In this document: piece by piece, positions 35,430-62,343 of the stretch
How positions within the stretch are numbered: position 1 is the first letter of the stretch
How the letters are laid out: the number at the start of each line of letters is the position of its first letter
NCBI GenBank assembly: GCA_036845805.1
Contig: DAIUDD010000002.1
Location: forward strand, 129,112-193,111
DNA length: 64,000 nt
Direction of reading: 5' to 3'
DNA from: Patescibacteria group bacterium
GTDB taxonomy: Bacteria; Patescibacteriota; Patescibacteriia; UBA2196
The notes under the pieces: model-generated
Told to the model about the DNA's origin: nothing
Seen by the model: the letters and a program-made list of their open reading frames with translations, nothing else
Database searches by the model: none
Program-made: the position numbers and the translations under genes

Positions 35430-38252
35430 TTAAAGAACTTCTTTTAAATATTTTCCAGTCCAGCTTTTTTTAACTTTGGCCACTTGTTCGGGTGTGCCTT
35501 CGGCCACCAAATAGCCGCCCTTATCCCCGCCCTCGGGACCCAAATCAATGACCCAATCAGAATTTTTAATAACGTCAAGATTGTGTTCAATGATTAAGAC
35601 AGAATTTCCCTTAACCACCAACTTTTGTAAAATCAATAATAATTTTTTGATATCATCAAAATGCAAACCAGTAGTGGGCTCATCTAAAATATACAAAGTC
35701 CGGCCGGTGGCGCGACGCGATAATTCAGTGGCAAGCTTAATCCGTTGAGCTTCACCGCCAGACAAAGTATTGGCTGGCTGGCCCAAAGGCAAATAACCCA
35801 AACCAACCTCGGCAAGAGTTTTCATTTTAGCAGTGATAAAAGGATTACCGCGAAAAAAATCACCTGCTTCTTCCACGGTCATTTGTAAAATATCGGCAAT
35901 GTTTTGACCATGGTAATGGATATCTAAAATTTCATTTTTAAATCTCTTACCTTGACAAACTTCGCACAATCGATAAACATCGGGCATAAAATTCATTTCA
36001 ATTTTAACCGCGCCTTCTCCTTGACAAGCTTCACAACGGCCACCAATTACATTAAAAGAAAAAGAACCTGGCTCAAATCTTTTGATTTTAGCTTCAGGCA
36101 AATTAGCAAATAAATCGCGAATGTAGGTAAAGGCGCCGGTATATGTGGCCGGATTAGAACGCGGAGTGCGGCCAATGGGACTTTGATCAACCGTAATAAC
36201 TTTATCTAAATTTTCTAAGCCAATAATTTTTTCGTGGGCTGCTGGCAGATCTTTGGCTTGATAAAAATAGTGAGATAGAGCTTTAGATAAAATTTCAGTA
36301 ATTAAAGTTGATTTGCCAGAACCAGAAACACCGGTAATACTAACTAAAACACCAAGCGGAATTTTAACATCAATGTTTTTTAAATTAAAAGCTTTGGCTT
36401 TTTTTATCATTAAAAATTTACCATTGCCTTTGTGTCTTTTGGTGGCTGTTAAAATCTCTAAACGATTAGCCAAATAAGCACCGGTTAGAGAATTTTTATT
36501 ATTTTTTATTTGAATGGGCGTACCCTCAGCAATAATTTCGCCGCCGTGTTTGCCAGCGCCGGGACCAATGTCGATTAACCAATCGGAAGCTAACATGGTG
36601 GCTTTATCGTGTTCCACCACGATGACACTATTGCCCGAAGCGCGTAAATCTTTTAACGTGGTAATTAATTGCTCGTTGTCTTTTTGATGCAAGCCAATCG
36701 ATGGCTCATCAAGAACATAGATAATACCCGAAAGACCAGAGCTGGTCTGGGTTGCTAAACGCACCCGCTGAGCTTCACCACCGGAAAGTGTTTCCGCAGA
36801 ACGAGCCAGAGATAAATAAGATAAGCCCACTTGGCATAAACAATGTAAGCGCTGGCTAATTTCTTTAATTAAAGGTTTAGCAATTAATGCTTCAGTGGTT
36901 GATAATTTTAAAGTTGATAAAAAATTATTTAAAATTAGTAAATTAAGTTCAGTAATCTGTGCCATATTTTTACCAGCTAATAAAACTGATAGGGCGGTCT
37001 TATTAAGACGACTGCCTTGGCAGGTGGGACAGACAGAAAAACGCATATAACGTTCTAATTCGCTTTTCATGTAATCGGTGTCGGCGGCGGCATATTTATG
37101 GACCAAACTGGGAATAACACCGCTAAACAAATCATCACCATATAAAACAACATCTAATTGTTTTTTGGTGAGCTTGGCAACGGGAATGTGCATGGTAAAA
37201 CCATGACGACTAGCCGCTTTAGCCAAGTCTTCGTTTAAGCGCGCATTAGTTTTGGCCAGTGCCCGGACCCAAGGTCTAATCGCGCCTTCAGCTAAAGTCA
37301 ATTTTTTATTGGGGATAACCAAATCTGGGTCAACTTGTTCTTTAACGCCCAAACCAGCGCAAACAGGGCAAGCGCCCAGAGGAGAATTAAAAGAAAAGAG
37401 ACGCGGTTCAATGGCGGGCAATTGAAAATGACATGCCGGGCAGGAAAGATGAAGAGAAAACATCTTTTCTTCTTTGGTTTTAAGACTAAATAAAGAGACA
37501 AAGCCATTGCCCAATTCAAGAGCAGTGTTTAATTCTTTTTCAAAAATATTACTAGTTAAATTATTTTTCTTTAGTGGTTCATTGTTAATGTTAAAAGTAC
37601 CAGTCACCACATCCAAATCATATTTTTTATCGCTATCAAAAGGAAGCAGCTGGGCTTCATCGATAGATAAAAATTCCTTATTCAGGCGAATGATTTTAAA
37701 CCCAGCTTTTTTAAGCTCGGCTAAAATTTTTTGACTTAAGCCTTTTTTCTGCTGAGCAATGGGAGTTAAAAAATAGACTTCCTGGTGGTTGAAAAAATTT
37801 TTAAGTTCGTTAATTATTTCGTTGATGTTTTTTTGAATCACCTCGCTGCCACAAATTGGACAATGAGGGTGGCCTAAACGGGCCATTAAAAGCCGCAGAT
37901 AATCATGAATTTCAGTCATGGTGCCCACGGTCGAGCGCGGATTTCTGGCAGCGGTTTTTTGATCAATCGCAATGGCTGGCGAAAGGCCGGAAATTTGATC
38001 AACATCGGGCTTATCTTTTAGCGCCGCAAACTGCCTGGCATAAGAAGAAATACTGTCCAGATAACGTCTTTGTCCTTCAGCATAAATAGTATCAAAGGCT
38101 AAGGAAGATTTGCCCGAACCAGAAACGCCGGTAATTACAACTAATTTATTTTTAGGAATATTAACATTAATATTTTTTAAATTATTAACCCGAGCACCAT
38201 GAATGGCAATAAAATCTGAATTTTTATGATTATTTGTTTTGGAACTGGGCAT
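35430..38252 (-). CDS. uvrA: Excinuclease ABC subunit A
   Basis: Two ABC ATPase modules (Walker A 'GVSGSGKSS' and 'GVSGSGKST'; signature 'LSGGEAQR' x2) plus Zn-finger Cys clusters. Start at MPSSKTN (38252); the ORF-track start is 17 codons further upstream. Confidence 0.9.
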
Positions 38253-38315
38253 AAAATATTTTTTATTTAACACAATTATATAACCTTTTCTGGTTATGGT
38301 CAAGGAAAATAAAAA

Positions 38316-38338
38316 ACCCCGGCGATCCGGGGTTCAAA
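38316..38338 (-). terminator. Rho-independent terminator (AACCCCGGATCGCCGGGGTT + T-run on minus strand)
   Basis: GC-rich 7-bp stem followed by TTTTTT in minus orientation, immediately after the stop of the Cys-rich ORF. Confidence 0.65.
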
Positions 38339-38344
38339 CTTATA

Positions 38345-38557
38345 TTACTCATTGCCCTGTGCGCACTTGCACACAAGACAAGGAGTGGTGCAGCTGCAAG
38401 CACCAGCTTCGTTGGCTGCTTTTCGGAACACGGGGCAATCTTCTCTATGGGCACAAGATTCTGGACCGCATCCACGGACCCCGGAATCATCTATTCCGCG
38501 ACATGTTGTTTTGCTACACGCCGCCAATCCTGCGGCCACTTGTTTGCAATTAAACAT
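38345..38557 (-). CDS. Cys-rich small protein (70 aa, 11 Cys; metallothionein-like or RiPP-precursor-like; unclassified)
   Basis: MFNCKQVAAGLAACSKTTCRGIDDSGVRGCGPESCAHREDCPVFRKAANEAGACSCTTPCLVCKCAQGNE. SD GGAGGG 8 nt upstream; terminator downstream; local GC about 55% against about 35% background. Confidence 0.4.
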   Translation of the reverse strand: MFNCKQVAAGLAACSKTTCRGIDDSGVRGCGPESCAHREDCPVFRKAANEAGACSCTTPCLVCKCAQGNE

Positions 38558-38575
38558 TAGCCTTAGCCCTCCAAT

Positions 38576-38722
38576 TTATTTTTTAAAAATTTTATCTGGG
38601 ATCAAATATATGACCGCTGATAAAGCTACGGCCACTAAAAAAAATAGTGGAATAAAAAATGGTCGGCAAAATTTATTGTCAGCCAAATTATCAATAAAAA
38701 CTAGAAACTTTTTCATTTTCAT
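38576..38722 (-). CDS. Small hydrophobic membrane peptide (48 aa) co-transcribed upstream of the Cys-rich ORF
   Basis: Hand-translated (not in ORF track): MKMKKFLVFIDNLADNKFCRPFFIPLFFLVAVALSAVIYLIPDKIFKK. Strong SD 'GGGAGGAGAGA' immediately upstream; stop 18 nt before the next ORF's start. Confidence 0.4.
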   Translation of the reverse strand: MKMKKFLVFIDNLADNKFCRPFFIPLFFLVAVALSAVIYLIPDKIFKK

Positions 38723-38789
38723 TCTCTCCTCCCGTTAATGACTTTTAAAAAAATAATTTACTATGTAATTAAAAATTTATTAATCTTTA

Positions 38790-39500
38790 TTACCAATCTT
38801 TAACTCTAAGAGCCTCTTCGGCTGCAGCCATCTGTGCTTCTTGCTTAGAAGTGCCAGTGCCTTGAGCCACCAGCTCATCTTCTAAATAGACCCCGATCAC
38901 AAAATTCTTATTATGATCAGGACCAGATTCAGCTAGAACCTGATAAGAGGGGGTGATTCCGACGCGGTCCTGCGCTTCTTCTTGAAACCGAGATTTGGCA
39001 TCAATATACAATTTTTTATCTAAGATGTTTGGCAGGTGTGTAATAATATTTTTATTAATAAATTCACTGGCCTTAGCTATGCCTTGATCAAGATAAATAG
39101 CGCCAATAATAGCTTCCATGGCGTTAGCCAAAATATAATTGCGAGCCTTCTGGTTTTTATCTTTAGCTTCACCGCGCGATAAATGCAAATATTCCTCCAC
39201 GCCTAATTGATGTGCAATGTCGGCTAACATTTTGGCATTAACCAAAGCGGCTCGCCAGTTAGTCAATTCGCCTTCGGGATTTTTATATTGTTTATAAAGA
39301 TATTCAGTCACTACTAACTCTAAAACAGCGTCGCCCAAAAACTCTAAACGTTCATTGTGGCCCAAAGATAAATCAGGATGTTCATTTAAATAGGAACGAT
39401 GAATTAAGGCCTGGAGCAATAAATTTTCGTCATTAAACCGACAAGTAAGGTGTTTGGCAAACTCACTAATGTTTTTCATAAAAAAAATAGCCCCATTCAA
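38790..39500 (-). CDS. rnc: Ribonuclease III
   Basis: RNase III signature 'ERLEFLGDAVLELVVTEYLY' and C-terminal dsRBD ('GPDHNKNFVIGVYL...AQGTGTSKQEAQMAAAEEAL'). Confidence 0.9.
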   Translation of the reverse strand: MNGAIFFMKNISEFAKHLTCRFNDENLLLQALIHRSYLNEHPDLSLGHNERLEFLGDAVLELVVTEYLYKQYKNPEGELTNWRAALVNAKMLADIAHQLGVEEYLHLSRGEAKDKNQKARNYILANAMEAIIGAIYLDQGIAKASEFINKNIITHLPNILDKKLYIDAKSRFQEEAQDRVGITPSYQVLAESGPDHNKNFVIGVYLEDELVAQGTGTSKQEAQMAAAEEALRVKDW

Positions 39501-39603: not shown

Positions 39604-39957
39604 TTATTCTTCATCAATATCGTCTGTTTTTTCTTCTTCTTCAATTTTTATTAAATCTTCTTCTTCGCCAACCACAGCGGTAGTTTCTTCAATTTTTTTC
39701 AGTTTTAATTTTTTTACTAAATTTTCATAATTGGTCGGGTTATCTTTACTTAAAAATTTAAGCAAGCGGCGGCGTTGGCCAATCTTACGCAAAAGACCGC
39801 GCCGAGAAGAAAAATCTTTCTTGTGAATTTTTAAATGTTCAGTTAATTCACGAATTTCTTCTGACAAAATTGCAATTTGCACCTCAGAAGAACCAGAATC
39901 GCTTTCATGAACACGGAATTTTTTGATAATCGCTTCTTTTCTTTTTTTATCTAACAT
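39604..39957 (-). CDS. rpsO: 30S ribosomal protein S15 with acidic C-terminal tail
   Basis: 'GSSEVQIAILSEEIRELTEHLKIHKKDFSSRRGLLRKIGQRRRLLKFL' is the S15 signature. Unusual ~30-aa E/D-rich extension. Start uncertain (39957 or 40002). Confidence 0.75.
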   Translation of the reverse strand: MLDKKRKEAIIKKFRVHESDSGSSEVQIAILSEEIRELTEHLKIHKKDFSSRRGLLRKIGQRRRLLKFLSKDNPTNYENLVKKLKLKKIEETTAVVGEEEDLIKIEEEEKTDDIDEE

Positions 39958-40200
39958 AAATTTATAGCCACGATAATCCGAGTTATAAGCCAAGTTAGAC
40001 AAAATGTTAGCTAAGAACCCAGAAAATCGTCATTAATTGATGTTTTGTATTTTAGCATAAAGTTAAAAATCTTGCAAGTTTGGCAAAAATAAGGTAAAGT
40101 GAGAATAACGATTTTAATCATGATGGCTTGCTTGCAACACCAATAAATCGGCTGGCGCGATGGGCAGAAAATAGTAATCTAAACATCAATTTTAAAAAAT

Positions 40201-40429
40201 AAGTTTTATTACTTGTGCCCTCATAGTTCAATGGAGTTCGAACCAGTAAAGCAAGCAAACCGCTTTGCTTGCGATGGTGAGAACGGGTTTGGGCTTGTGC
40301 CAATAGGCACGACCAAAACCAAGAACACCAGCCTTCTAAGCTGGTTATGTAGGTCCGCCCTAAACCATAAAGGTTTAGGGTGCCATGCACCTTTATGGTG
40401 CATGGCGATTCCTTATTCTTTGTGTTAAC
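40201..40429 (+). pseudogene. Degenerate tRNA-Arg(TCT) copy disrupted by a ~90-nt insertion in the D-loop and a double-hairpin insertion in the T-loop
   Basis: Contains GTGCCCTCATAGTTCAATGGA (acceptor/D 5' side), then ..AGAAC-ACCAGC-CTTCTAA-GCTGGT (intact anticodon arm, anticodon TCT), then TATGTAGGTCCG-[CCCTAAACC..GGTTTAGGG][CGCCATGCACC..GGTGCATGGCG]-ATTCCT (T-loop TCCGATTCCT split by two hairpins). No acceptor 3' strand. Confidence 0.45.
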
Positions 40430-40690
40430 ATGTATTATCATTATATTTTATTACTTGCCAATAGAAGTTTATATAATGGTTTTTCTAACGATTTAAAAAC
40501 TAGATTTTTTGAACATGAAAAAGGCAAGGTAAAATCTACGAAAAATTTGAGACCAGTCAAATTAATCTATTATGAAGCTTTTTTAAATAAAAATGACGCT
40601 TTAAGGAGAGAAAAATATTTCAAAACGAATAAAGGCAAAAAGATGACTAAAATAATATTAAGGGAGTTTTTTAATCAGATAGGCGAATAA
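40430..40690 (+). CDS. GIY-YIG family endonuclease (small Slx1/UPF0213-type, homing-endonuclease-like)
   Basis: 86 aa 'MYYHYILLLANRSLYNGFSNDLKTRFFEHEKGKVKSTKNLRPVKLIYYEAFLNKNDALRREKYFKTNKGKKMTKIIL', matching the GIY-(x10)-YIG pattern, the 'R..EH' motif and the C-terminal 'REK.LK' signature. Confidence 0.7.
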   Translation: MYYHYILLLANRSLYNGFSNDLKTRFFEHEKGKVKSTKNLRPVKLIYYEAFLNKNDALRREKYFKTNKGKKMTKIILREFFNQIGE

Positions 40691-42304: not shown

Positions 42305-42748
42305 ATGTTTACGCAACTTTACAATACGGTAGAACGGAAAAATATCAGAAGAGTGTTAAGGAAATCAATGCCTAAAGGTGAAAAACTTTTGTGGTCTAAA
42401 CTTAAAGCTAATCAATTAGGTTATAAATTTAAAAGACAATATAGTATCGGGGCATATATATTAGATTTTTATGCTCCCGCTATTAAACTATGCATTGAAA
42501 TTGACGGTCGAACTCATGATTATGATGAACAAACTAAATATGATGATAAAAGACAAAAATATTTGGAATCAATAGGTATAATTGTTAAAAGATTTAATAG
42601 TAAAGAAATTTTTGATAATATTAATTCAGTAGTAGAACAAATATGGTTCATCGGGGAAGATATTAAAAATAAAAACATAAAAACACCTCTCCCCAACCCT
42701 CCCCTTATTAAGGGAAGGGAGCCGACCTTCATAAGACAAATATGTTAA
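42305..42748 (+). CDS. DUF559 (Vsr/restriction-endonuclease-like fold) endonuclease-domain protein, flanked by GC-rich inverted repeats
   Basis: 'LWSKLKANQLGYKFKRQYSIGAYILDFYAPAIKLCIEIDGRTHDYDEQTKYDDKRQKYLESIGIIVKRF' is typical of DUF559. The last ~20 codons read through the right-hand repeat. Confidence 0.65.
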   Translation: MFTQLYNTVERKNIRRVLRKSMPKGEKLLWSKLKANQLGYKFKRQYSIGAYILDFYAPAIKLCIEIDGRTHDYDEQTKYDDKRQKYLESIGIIVKRFNSKEIFDNINSVVEQIWFIGEDIKNKNIKTPLPNPPLIKGREPTFIRQIC

Positions 42749-43951: not shown

Positions 43952-44683
43952 TTATTTTTTTAATAATTGATCAATAATGGTTTTTAAATTTTCATAAGGC
44001 ACTGCACCGGGCACAGGATTATTGTTAATAAAATTAGTCGGGGTGCCTTGTACGCCAGATTCTACGCCTAAATTATAATCAGCTAAAATTTTCTCTTTAT
44101 ATTTCTCTTCTTCGATACAGGTATTAAATTTATCAGTATCGAGATTTAATTGGCCAGCAAATTTGCTAAAACTCGCTTCAGATAAGGTGTCCTGATTAGC
44201 AAAAATCATATCGCTCATTTCCCAAAACTTATCTTGCTCGCCAGCACATTCAGCTGCCAAAGATCCAGGCATGCCCAAAGGATGAGAAGCAATAGGAAAG
44301 TTTTTAAAAACCCAAACAACTTGATCGCCATATTCCTTAACAATCTTAGCCATGGTTTCTTGGTGTCTGGCACAATAAGGACATTGAAAATCAGAAAATT
44401 CAAAAATTTTAACTGGGGCGTTTTTATTACCACGCACATGATCATTATCAGAAATTTTTAAATCAACCTTAACCGCTGGTTCATTTTCATTGTTTTGTTG
44501 ATTAGCTGCTTGATTGTTATTATTGGCATTATTATTAGCTTGATTATCTTTGTTAGAAAAACCACCAGTAAAATAGGCAGCGGTGGAAATAAGAGCAATG
44601 CCCAAAATCAGTCCTAAGAAAAAATTTACTTTAGGAGAATCAGTAATAAATTTTTGTGAAGTTTGATTGTTTGCTTCAGTCAT
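43952..44683 (-). CDS. DsbA-like thioredoxin-fold thiol:disulfide oxidoreductase, membrane-anchored
   Basis: N-terminal TM, Asn/Gln-rich linker, CxxC 'FQCPYCARHQ', and thioredoxin-fold C-terminus. Confidence 0.75.
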   Translation of the reverse strand: MTEANNQTSQKFITDSPKVNFFLGLILGIALISTAAYFTGGFSNKDNQANNNANNNNQAANQQNNENEPAVKVDLKISDNDHVRGNKNAPVKIFEFSDFQCPYCARHQETMAKIVKEYGDQVVWVFKNFPIASHPLGMPGSLAAECAGEQDKFWEMSDMIFANQDTLSEASFSKFAGQLNLDTDKFNTCIEEEKYKEKILADYNLGVESGVQGTPTNFINNNPVPGAVPYENLKTIIDQLLKK

Positions 44684-61726: not shown

Positions 61727-62191
61727 ATGTTAAAGATAATTTTAGACACTAATGTTTTAATTAATGCCATGAATGACAATCTTTCCTATACTTGGAAAAT
61801 TATTAATTTAGTATTAAAGGGCGAAATTGAAGCTTATGCCTCAGAAAAAATTATTAAAGAATATAATTTAATTGTCGAGAGAAATATTGTAAAGAAACAA
61901 GACCGCGAACAATTAGAAAATTTTATTCAACAAGTAAATTTGATACCAGTTTATCAAAAAATTATGGCCATTGCCGATGATCCAGAAGATAATAAATTCA
62001 TTGAATGTGCGGTAGAGGCAAAAGCTGATTATATAATTTCTTCAGATAGACACTTGCTACGTCTTGGTAACTATGACAATATTAAAATTAAAGAGCCAAA
62101 AGATTTTTGGTATCTATATCAAGGCCAAAAACCAGAGGCGGATGAAGAATGGAAAGATTTTTTTAGAAATATTTTGGGAATCAATAAATAA
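61727..62191 (+). CDS. PIN-domain protein (putative VapC-like nuclease)
   Basis: 'ILDTNVLINA' N-terminal acidic motif and 'IISSDRHL' C-terminal Asp, consistent with the PIN fold; 154 aa. Confidence 0.6.
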   Translation: MLKIILDTNVLINAMNDNLSYTWKIINLVLKGEIEAYASEKIIKEYNLIVERNIVKKQDREQLENFIQQVNLIPVYQKIMAIADDPEDNKFIECAVEAKADYIISSDRHLLRLGNYDNIKIKEPKDFWYLYQGQKPEADEEWKDFFRNILGINK

Positions 62192-62343
62192 TAAAAAAAT
62201 CGTCCTCATAAAGGGGGCGGTTTTTTATTTTCCGTAGATTTATTTATAAATTTTATTAACCACCCTGTCACCCTACCGGAAAAAGGTGGGGATTATTTTT
62301 TTCCTTTGTTTCTCAATTTCTTTATTTCTTAATTTCTTATTTT

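What the first reader, a model, noticed from the sequence alone, without database searches (positions are those of the whole stretch)
38316..38735. Compact two-gene module: 48-aa membrane peptide + 70-aa 11-Cys peptide on a GC-rich island with strong SDs and its own terminator
Between uvrA and rnc, on the minus strand, the SD 'GGGAGGAGAGA' precedes a hydrophobic 48-aa peptide absent from the ORF track. SD 'GGAGGG' then precedes a 70-aa peptide with 11 Cys, including CxxC-type clusters 'CSCTTPCLVCKC'. A tight GC hairpin terminator follows. The second ORF sits on a ~220-nt segment of about 55% GC in a 35% GC context. The residues are metallothionein-like or RiPP/bacteriocin-precursor-like, and no maturase is adjacent. 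Such a GC spike could alternatively mark a structured RNA (e.g. a highly folded sRNA) over which the ORF is coincidental.
Basis: partly seen in the sequence, partly recalled or inferred. Interest (0 to 1): 0.6.

Follow-up and report, generated by a model that had tools for sequence, protein, structure and literature searches.

The report
Strain-variable small-protein cassette after rnc
Two tiny genes at the end of the rpsO-rnc operon of an uncultured Patescibacteria (CPR) bacterium, a 48-residue membrane peptide and a 70-residue soluble protein with 11 cysteines, are real protein genes from an unannotated, recombination-shuffled cassette; they are not a hidden RNA, and they fail the profile and context tests I could run for metallothionein and RiPP loci.

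Summary
ORF tm48 (38576-38722, minus strand) and ORF cys70 (38345-38557, minus strand, 11 Cys) each follow a GGAGG Shine-Dalgarno (SD) site. A hairpin plus U-tract terminator (38314-38335) follows them.

The structured-RNA alternative is not supported:
- Rfam finds nothing in the region.
- The GC excess lies in codon positions 1-2 (0.54/0.61/0.44 against a genome 0.47/0.34/0.33). That is amino-acid composition.
- Relatives carry homologous small ORFs at the same place. cys70 matches 54-aa proteins in L138 and L142/L148: invariant C14, C19, C35, H37 and C41, motif SCxH[RK][DE]xCPV[FL], and 0 of 5000 composition-preserving shuffles reach the score. tm48 matches a peptide just after rnc in L058 (0 of 5000).

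No metallothionein, SCIFF, Pfam, NCBIfam, PADLOC, PHROG or PDB match exists. No CxxxCxxC (radical-SAM) ORF occurs in the 64 kb.

The pair ends the rpsO-rnc operon, in a gap between rnc and uvrA that is empty in one relative and holds different small-gene mosaics in others. Two contigs encoding the same UvrA protein, with identical flanks, carry wholly different genes B and C.

Function is inferred only. I read cys70 as a soluble metal-binding mini-protein working with a membrane peptide.

This is a new, unannotated small-protein family of moderate interest.

The parts
40049..40077 (-). Promoter-like site (TTGCAA-17-TAAAAT, TG-extended) upstream of rpsO. Likely start of the rpsO-rnc-tm48-cys70 transcript.
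   Evidence: This is a consensus match only.
39604..40002 (-). rpsO (ribosomal protein S15), first gene of the unit
   Evidence: PF00312
38790..39500 (-). rnc (RNase III). No terminator lies between it and tm48.
38723..38733 (-). SD site GGGAGGAGAGA of tm48 (GGAGG, 5-nt spacer)
38576..38722 (-). tm48 (gene A): 48-aa single-pass membrane peptide, MKMKKFLVFIDNLADNKFCRPFFIPLFFLVAVALSAVIYLIPDKIFKK
   Evidence: transmembrane helix. Homologue directly after rnc in L058: phmmer E=0.0011 against 10,043 ORFs and 0/5000 shuffles. The '[CY]LIP' C-terminal motif is shared with gene A of L142, L143, L144 and L148.
38568..38572 (-). SD site GGAGG of cys70 (10-nt spacer). tm48 and cys70 lie in the same frame, separated by TAA plus 6 codons.
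38345..38557 (-). cys70 (gene B, subfamily B1): 70-aa soluble protein with 11 Cys. Conserved core spans residues 14-45; residues about 46-70 are a lineage-specific Cys-rich tail.
   Evidence: homology to L138 Cys54 and to P0125/P0126. (GC1/2/3 = 0.54/0.61/0.44).
38347..38386 (-). 17-bp stem (4 + 13 pairs around a one-nucleotide internal loop on each side) with a 4-nt loop, inside the 3' end of cys70. It overlies the unique Cys-rich tail. Its significance is unknown.
38314..38335 (-). Intrinsic terminator of the operon (9-bp stem, U tract)
38275..38303 (-). uvrA promoter, TTGACC-17-TATAAT (11/12). TATAATTGTGTTAAAT is conserved in L003, L138 and L142.
35430..38252 (-). uvrA, downstream boundary of the variable gap

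Best explanation
tm48 and cys70 are two translated small genes. They form the last cistrons of the rpsO-rnc transcript in a Moranbacteria-like Patescibacteria genome.

They belong to a clade-specific small-gene cassette that sits only in the gap between rnc and uvrA. The cassette has three kinds of gene:
- Gene A is a single-pass membrane peptide (here tm48).
- Gene B is a small soluble Cys-rich protein (here cys70).
- Gene C is a third small protein, present in most relatives and absent here.

The cassette is reshuffled by homologous recombination between strains and is missing in some relatives.

Shown:
- Both genes are coding.
- Both are homologous to positional counterparts in relatives.
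- They sit in an operon context.
- The cassette is mosaic.
- They are not detectably members of known RNA or protein families.

Inferred:
- The invariant C14, C19, C35, H37 and C41 of cys70 form a metal site (Zn, or possibly Fe-S) that folds the mini-protein.
- The extra five-Cys tail adds a second thiolate cluster.
- The protein acts at the membrane together with tm48 in a dispensable, strain-specific role, for example an inter-strain, phage or host interaction, not a core function.
For: Coding rather than RNA:
- GC1/2/3 is 0.54/0.61/0.44 against 0.47/0.34/0.33 for long ORFs. The excess is in position 2, which reflects amino-acid composition.
- Rfam gathering and E<=10 scans are empty.
- Both ORFs have GGAGG SD sites.

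Homology by position:
- Relatives with the same SHMT-rpsO-rnc-[gap]-uvrA-pilB-pilin synteny carry small ORFs in the gap.
- The best non-self hit of cys70 among 10,043 six-frame ORFs is the L138 54-aa ORF, E=0.0017 (reciprocal 0.01). An HMM built from L138+L142 scores cys70 at E=0.006.
- 0/5000 composition-preserving shuffles reach the score against L138 or P0126.
- Invariant residues are C14, T17, C19, G21, P32, C35, H37 and C41.
- The relatives' B genes are not GC-rich; their whole cassettes are 31-36% GC. Conservation is therefore at protein level, not nucleotide level.
- tm48 against the L058 peptide: E=0.0011 and 0/5000 shuffles.

Operon: there is one terminator only, placed after cys70. 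In relatives the A, B and C genes abut or overlap by 8-17 nt.

Cassette mobility:
- L139 has rnc and uvrA 27 nt apart.
- L145 has different genes in the gap.
- L142 and L143 encode the identical UvrA protein. Their DNA is identical through gene A and again from the terminator onward. The roughly 430 nt holding genes B and C are unrelated.
- L148 is a third mosaic, with a breakpoint inside gene B.

cys70 has no hydrophobic segment (KD maximum 0.66), so it is soluble.
Against: - Homology of cys70 rests on about 35 residues and bit scores of 15-18. It is significant only in the small local database and with the positional prior. phmmer against 1.84 billion representatives found nothing but itself and two giant repetitive proteins.
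- No relative closer than 63% UvrA identity covers cys70, so no dN/dS or covariation test was possible.
- Synonymous codon usage of cys70 falls in the lowest 2% of 70-codon windows.
- The ORF RNA folds better than shuffles (z=-2.8), and the stem at 38347-38386 overlies the non-conserved tail.
- AF2 models are unusable (pLDDT 46-49), so metal binding is inferred only from invariant Cys and His.
- Subfamily B2 (L143, L144) is not demonstrably homologous to B1 (hhalign E=0.28).
- JGI annotates an antisense 117-aa ORF in this place.
Confidence: 0.72

Rival explanations
1. The GC-rich 220 nt encode a structured non-coding RNA, and the 70-codon ORF is coincidental.
For: - MFE z-score is -4.2 on both strands with the terminator included, and -2.8 for the ORF alone.
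- A long stem lies at 38347-38386.
- In 55% GC sequence a 70-codon open frame is not rare.
- The protein has no database homologues.
Against: - No Rfam hit even at E<=10.
- The GC excess peaks at codon position 2.
- There is an SD site plus ATG.
- Protein-level similarity exists to ORFs at the same position in AT-rich relatives, with conservative substitutions (R/K, E/D, F/L) and invariant Cys and His.
- blastn finds no nucleotide similarity to those relatives, so no RNA is conserved.
Confidence: 0.05
2. cys70 is a RiPP or bacteriocin precursor whose Cys-rich C-terminal core (CSCTTPCLVCKC) is modified or secreted. tm48 is its immunity or export partner. This would fit the strain-level allelic replacement seen in bacteriocin and pherotype loci.
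For: - The pairing is a small Cys/Ser/Thr-rich peptide with a small membrane peptide.
- Gene B and gene C alleles are sharply bounded between strains that encode the identical UvrA protein.
- The cassette is dispensable.
Against: - No SCIFF or other NCBIfam or Pfam precursor hit.
- No CxxxCxxC radical-SAM ORF in 64 kb.
- No maturase, C39 peptidase or ABC exporter among the neighbours within about 10 kb.
- No signal peptide or GG leader on inspection.
- The conserved part is the N-terminal and central Cys4-His core, not a leader. The putative 'core' tail is unique to this genome.
- B2 proteins have a long non-Cys C-terminal domain.
Confidence: 0.1
3. cys70 is a metallothionein-type metal-sequestering protein (SmtA/BmtA-like) for Zn, Cu or Cd buffering.
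For: 16% Cys, with one invariant His. The C-terminal CxCxxxCxxCxC cluster resembles thiolate-cluster motifs.
Against: - No match to PF02069 or any metallothionein profile at E<=10.
- No PDB profile match.
- Relatives have only 5-6 Cys, too few for a metallothionein-type thiolate cluster.
- No metal-responsive regulator or efflux gene is adjacent.
- Expression from a ribosomal-protein/rnc operon is not metal-regulated in any obvious way.
Confidence: 0.08
4. The real gene is the antisense ORF (window 38385-38738, plus strand, 117 aa), as JGI annotates it. The two sense ORFs are its shadows.
For: JGI's call on the identical contigs L151 and L152. A 125-codon stop-free antisense frame exists in the window, with AAGGAG 2 nt before a GTG.
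Against: - The antisense protein has no significant similarity to antisense translations in relatives (best E=0.21).
- No long antisense frame is consistently maintained in relatives (38-105 codons).
- The sense ORFs keep SD sites, coupling and protein motifs in every relative.
- The sense strand encodes a clean transmembrane helix.
- ENA and Logan callers choose the sense pair.
Confidence: 0.04

Closest known systems
Bacterial metallothioneins (SmtA/BmtA, Pfam PF02069)
   Same: Small (about 55-70 aa), soluble, rich in Cys with a conserved His. A plausible thiolate metal site.
   Different: No profile match. The Cys spacing differs: C-x4-C-x15-C-x-H-x3-C plus a non-conserved tail. Family members in relatives have only 5-6 Cys. 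The gene is paired with a membrane peptide in an rpsO-rnc operon.
SCIFF / ranthipeptide and other Cys-rich RiPP precursors (NCBIfam TIGR03973 and relatives), which come with adjacent radical-SAM maturases
   Same: A short Cys-rich peptide with a C-terminal Cys cluster.
   Different: No profile match. No CxxxCxxC ORF in 64 kb. The conserved region is the Cys4-His core, not a leader.
Allelic bacteriocin/immunity or pherotype cassettes (for example the blp, comC and agrD type loci of Firmicutes; comparison from my own knowledge)
   Same: Sharply bounded, unrelated alleles of small genes between identical flanks in near-identical strains. A small membrane protein lies next to a small peptide gene.
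   Different: No leader, exporter, C39 peptidase or two-component system nearby. Here the membrane peptide is the constant part and the soluble proteins vary.
Membrane-anchored small zinc-ribbon proteins, for example the 81-aa TM + CxxC..CxxC ORF directly after rnc in relative L004
   Same: Same position after rnc and the same parts list: one transmembrane helix plus a four-Cys module.
   Different: In L004 the parts are fused in one polypeptide with classical CxxC knuckles. There is no detectable sequence similarity to tm48 or to the cys70 tail.

Membership tests
Rfam structured RNA (any of 4227 families) | Covariance-model match at or near the gathering score | tested here: not met
   gathering, whole window; E<=10, 38250-38800. 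The only hits are sub-threshold noise and terminator look-alikes.
Novel structured RNA | Compensatory base changes across homologues | not testable with these tools
   No nucleotide-level homologue exists other than identical copies.
Bacterial metallothionein (PF02069 and other MT profiles) | Profile HMM match | tested here: not met
   zero Pfam families at E<=10 for cys70; none for the relatives.
SCIFF / ranthipeptide precursor | NCBIfam precursor profile match | tested here: not met
   zero NCBIfam families at E<=10.
SCIFF / ranthipeptide precursor | Adjacent radical-SAM (CxxxCxxC) maturase | tested here: not met
   no ORF of 110 aa or more with CxxxCxxC in the 64-kb window. The neighbours are housekeeping genes.
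Class II bacteriocin + immunity locus | Leader or signal peptide on the peptide, and a dedicated exporter or peptidase nearby | tested here: not met
   No hydrophobic N-terminus. No GG-leader motif on inspection. No ABC or C39 genes within about 10 kb.
Anti-phage defence systems (PADLOC) / phage proteins (PHROGs) | Profile match of any cassette protein | tested here: not met
Cassette gene-B1 family (defined here: window cys70, L138 Cys54, P0125/P0126/P0127) | Position between gene A and uvrA, plus the motif C-x4-C-[KR]-G ... P-x-[ST]-C-x-H-[RK]-[DE]-x-C | tested here: met
   E=0.0017-0.006 in a 10,043-ORF database. 0/5000 shuffles.
Cassette gene-A family (defined here: tm48, L058, L142/143/148, L144) | First gene after rnc, one transmembrane helix, ending in [CY]-L-I-P | tested here: met
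   tm48 against L058: E=0.0011 and 0/5000 shuffles. The link to L144 and L148 is weaker (HMM E=0.071).
Rho-independent terminator | GC-rich stem-loop followed by a U tract | tested here: met
   9 bp, 6 GC pairs, TTTTATTTT.
Type I toxin-antitoxin (small hydrophobic toxin + antisense RNA, RNase III-dependent) | Overlapping antisense RNA with its own promoter | not testable with these tools
   Only weak promoter-like matches on the plus strand. No expression data.

The most novel reading that the evidence does not exclude
The rnc-uvrA gap of this Patescibacteria clade hosts a previously undescribed polymorphic small-protein system. It has a constant membrane peptide plus interchangeable soluble mini-proteins: Cys4-His 'B' modules and 'EWxxxGIP' 'C' modules. 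Strains swap these by recombination. The system would mediate strain-specific conflict or recognition (toxin/immunity-like, phage exclusion, or host-episymbiont specificity), and is co-expressed with RNase III.
Probability: 0.2. Interest if true: 0.65.

Novelty: new variant of a known kind. Interest (0 to 1): 0.38.

Why it matters
CPR/Patescibacteria genomes are small, and a large share of their genes have no known function.

This case shows that an apparent 'GC island' in an AT-rich genome can simply be a Cys/Gly/Ala-rich micro-protein gene. It also resolves a conflict between public annotations, where JGI calls an antisense 117-aa ORF and ENA/Logan call the sense pair.

It defines three unannotated small-protein families (A, B1/B2, C1). 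They sit in a recombination hotspot at the end of the rpsO-rnc operon, with different alleles of genes B and C between contigs that encode the identical UvrA protein. If the cassette proves to mediate strain-specific interactions, it would be a compact handle on CPR population biology. If not, it is an ordinary example of lineage-specific small ORFs.

Tried and rejected
- SRP-RNA idea. 'GAAAAGCAGCC' recalled SRP RNA helix 8, but the Rfam E<=10 scan gave no SRP, 6S or RNase P hit, so I dropped it.
- Word-indexed protein searches of cys70 and tm48 returned only self. Exhaustive phmmer of cys70 against 1.84 billion representatives returned self plus two repetitive giants.
- rnc-anchored scans of GTDB genomes and JGI metagenomes gave 135 loci. 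Among them only L003/L059 share the rnc-gap-uvrA arrangement and only L058 has a tm48 homologue. tblastn and blastn of the region against all loci were otherwise negative.
- The UvrA search showed no relative between 63% and 100% identity. L001, L002, L151 and L152 are identical copies, so dN/dS and covariation were impossible.
- A four-sequence HMM mixing B1 and B2 missed cys70, and hhalign of B1 against B2 was not significant. B2 is therefore not claimed as homologous.
- The cys70 C-terminal tail compared with gene-C proteins ('CSCTTP' against 'CTCNHP' in L003) was not significant, so the fusion idea was dropped.
- The lipobox reading of 'GLAAC' was rejected. C14 is an invariant core Cys, the relatives have no hydrophobic region, and the KD maximum is 0.66.
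- AF2 with a single sequence and with a 4-sequence alignment gave pLDDT 49 and 46. No fold search was attempted.
- A PDB profile search gave 0 hits.
- Two literature searches found nothing relevant.

Full report
**Observation.** On the minus strand the order is rpsO (39604-40002), rnc (38790-39500), a 65-nt AT-rich spacer, then the two small ORFs.
- tm48 runs 38576-38722 (48 aa), with GGAGG 5 nt upstream of the ATG.
- cys70 runs 38345-38557 (70 aa, 11 Cys), with GGAGG 10 nt upstream.
- A 9-bp GC hairpin with a U tract follows at 38314-38335.
- Next comes a near-consensus promoter, TTGACC-17-TATAAT (38303-38275), and then uvrA.
- GC content is 0.55-0.56 over cys70, against 0.21-0.31 in the flanks and 0.365 for the window.

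Three qualifications apply. 58 stretches of the window reach 50% GC or more. The terminator is the only one on this strand downstream of the promoter-like site before rpsO, so it ends the whole rpsO-rnc-tm48-cys70 unit. tm48 is present in public gene calls.

**RNA or protein?**
- Rfam gives nothing in the region at gathering thresholds or at E<=10.
- The RNA folds better than shuffles: z=-4.2 with the terminator on either strand and z=-2.8 for the ORF alone. Much of that comes from one 17-bp stem at 38347-38386.
- The composition argues for coding. GC at codon positions 1/2/3 is 0.54/0.61/0.44, against 0.47/0.34/0.33 in the window's long ORFs. The 'island' is mainly a position-2 effect of Cys, Ala, Gly, Arg, Pro, Ser and Thr codons. 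GC3 is within the top 10% of ordinary 70-codon windows.

**Database searches.** cys70 has no Pfam or NCBIfam hit at E<=10. It has no homologue in the word-indexed 5.8-billion-protein search. Exhaustive phmmer against 1.84 billion representatives returned only itself plus two giant repetitive proteins. tm48 likewise returned only itself.

**Comparative genomics.**
- rnc-anchored scans identified the organism as a Moranbacteria-like Patescibacterium.
- UvrA searches showed the lineage is sparsely sampled. The next-best UvrA is 63% identical. L001, L002, L151 and L152 are identical copies of the window.
- Relatives at 60-63% UvrA identity keep the synteny SHMT(-)-rpsO-rnc-[gap]-uvrA-pilB(-)-pilin(-).

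The gap is variable:
- L139: 27 nt and no gene.
- L145: a 278-aa multi-pass membrane protein plus small ORFs.
- L138, L003/L141, L142, L143, L144 and L148: three abutting or overlapping small genes.

I call these genes A (a membrane peptide), B (a small Cys-containing protein) and C.

**Homology of the window's genes.**

cys70 aligns with the B genes of L138 (MAAKVSPSTRKKKLTPGCCGTTCKGSTGDPKSCIHKDICPVLKKYRRENNVEHK) and of L142/L148 (P0125, P0126). Invariant residues are C14, T17, C19, G21, P32, C35, H37 and C41. The shared motif is SCxH[RK][DE]xCPV[FL][RK].
- In a database of 10,043 six-frame ORFs from the window and all loci, L138's ORF is the best non-self hit of cys70 (E=0.0017; reciprocal 0.01). 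An HMM of L138+L142 finds cys70 at E=0.006.
- None of 5000 composition-preserving shuffles of cys70 reaches the real score against L138 or P0126.
- The cassettes holding the relatives' B genes are only 31-36% GC, and blastn finds no DNA similarity. What is conserved is the protein.
- The B genes of L143 and L144 are clearly related to each other (E=2e-14). They share only a Cys pattern with B1 (hhalign E=0.28), so I do not claim homology.

tm48 matches the peptide that follows rnc in L058, whose rnc is 85% identical; that contig ends before gene B. The match scores E=0.0011 and 0/5000 shuffles. tm48 also shares the '[CY]LIP' end with gene A of L142, L143, L144 and L148, though this link is weaker (HMM E=0.071).

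They coincide with the stem at 38347-38386.

**The antisense ORF.** On the identical JGI contigs the gene caller chose a 117-aa antisense ORF. Its translation has no significant match to antisense translations in relatives (best E=0.21). No long antisense frame is maintained in relatives. The sense genes keep their SD sites, their coupling and their motifs. I regard the antisense call as an artefact.

**Cassette dynamics.**
- L142 and L143 encode the very same UvrA protein (P0014).
- Their DNA is identical through gene A up to the start codon of gene B, and again from the terminator onward. The roughly 430 nt holding genes B and C are unrelated: B1+C2 in L142 and B2+C1 in L143.
- L148, L149 and L150 carry a third mosaic, B1'+C1'. 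Its B differs from L142's only in the last 11 residues, so a breakpoint lies inside the gene.
- B and C types combine freely across genomes.
- MITE-like palindromic repeats sit in the gap of L148 and L144.

The gap is therefore a recombination hotspot carrying dispensable, interchangeable small genes. The window has an A + B1 version with no C gene.

**Function (inferred).**
- cys70 has no hydrophobic segment (KD maximum 0.66). tm48 has one strong transmembrane helix.
- Four invariant Cys plus one invariant His in a 30-residue core are the signature of a structural metal site.
- AF2 could not model the protein (pLDDT 46-49), and PDB profile, PADLOC and PHROG searches are empty. The metal-site reading therefore remains an inference.
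- No radical-SAM motif ORF occurs in 64 kb.
- The neighbours are housekeeping genes: pilin, PilB-like ATPase, LeuRS, RNase Y, SHMT, FolD and a DsbA-like thioredoxin. This argues against a RiPP or bacteriocin locus.
- A relative (L004) has, directly after rnc, a single 81-aa ORF that fuses a transmembrane helix to a CxxC..CxxC zinc ribbon. It is an architectural analogue of tm48 plus cys70.

My best reading is a membrane peptide plus a soluble metal-stabilised mini-protein, co-translated from the tail of the rpsO-rnc mRNA and serving a strain-specific accessory role. I am about 0.85 confident that both are genuine coding genes of this cassette. I am about 0.5 confident of the metal-binding mechanism. 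The biological role is open.

**Verdict.** These are unannotated small-protein families in a variable cassette, a new variant of a known kind of thing (lineage-specific micro-proteins in a hotspot). Interest is moderate.

Noticed in passing
window 38555-38578 (-): The tm48 stop codon (TAA) and the cys70 ATG are in the same reading frame, separated by only six sense codons (..KIFKK*IGGLRLMFNCK..). Read-through would give a 125-aa fusion of the membrane anchor and the Cys-rich protein. This is probably coincidence.
   Followed up: no
L142:136-560, L143:93-500, L148:391-800: L142 and L143 encode the identical UvrA protein and share 100% identical flanks, yet carry unrelated gene B and gene C alleles. 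L148 shares the same gene A peptide (its UvrA differs) and carries a third mosaic, with a recombination breakpoint inside the 3' end of gene B.
   Followed up: yes
L148:60-160; L144:871-948 and 1572-1715: MITE/REP-like elements lie in the rnc-uvrA gap: tandem TTGTCATTCCCGCTTTTCTTTTT units and the palindrome GTCATTCCCGCGAAAGCAGGAATCCAG (the 'VIPAKAGIQ' / 'PAYAGMT' type of pseudo-ORF).
   Followed up: no
L004: 81-aa ORF starting 114 nt after the rnc stop codon: In a relative with 70% rnc identity, the gene after rnc is an 81-aa protein that fuses a transmembrane helix to a CxxC..CxxC zinc ribbon. The parts list is the same as tm48 plus cys70, but in one polypeptide.
   Followed up: partly
L021, L034, L087: small ORFs starting 78-273 nt after the rnc stop codon: More distant Patescibacteria have mutually similar 28-39-aa membrane peptides (..RNFRK..) just after rnc. 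Small membrane peptides after rnc may be a wider theme.
   Followed up: no
window 38347-38386 (-): A 17-bp stem (4 + 13 pairs) with a 4-nt loop lies inside the last 12 codons of cys70, immediately upstream of the terminator and downstream of the RNase III gene. It could be an mRNA-stability or processing element, or a by-product of TGY/GCA codons.
   Followed up: partly
L151/L152:2536-2889 (-), which is window 38385-38738 (+): JGI annotates a 117-aa antisense ORF across tm48 and cys70, whereas ENA and Logan call the sense 46-aa and 70-aa genes. cys70 (P0001) is recorded only from Logan and ENA, not from NCBI or JGI.
   Followed up: yes
window 40385-40690 (+) and 42305-42748 (+): A stand-alone GIY-YIG nuclease ORF lies between rpsO and a tRNA, and a DUF559 (Vsr-like endonuclease) ORF lies between SHMT and folD. 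Both look like selfish or accessory insertions among housekeeping genes. L152 carries a shorter GIY-YIG gene call (86 aa against 101 aa).
   Followed up: partly
window 40100-40400: A stretch of about 52% GC upstream of rpsO has only implausible ORFs and no Rfam hit at E<=1. JGI calls a 90-107-aa ORF there. Its nature is unexplained.
   Followed up: partly
window 43952-44683 (-): A membrane-anchored DsbA-like thioredoxin lies 5.4 kb from the Cys-rich gene. There is no evidence of a functional link, because cys70 lacks a signal peptide.
   Followed up: no
window 62114-62209 (-): A 31-aa ORF antisense to a 154-aa ORF gives a weak phmmer hit to tm48 (E=0.005). It is probably hydrophobic-composition noise.
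   Followed up: no
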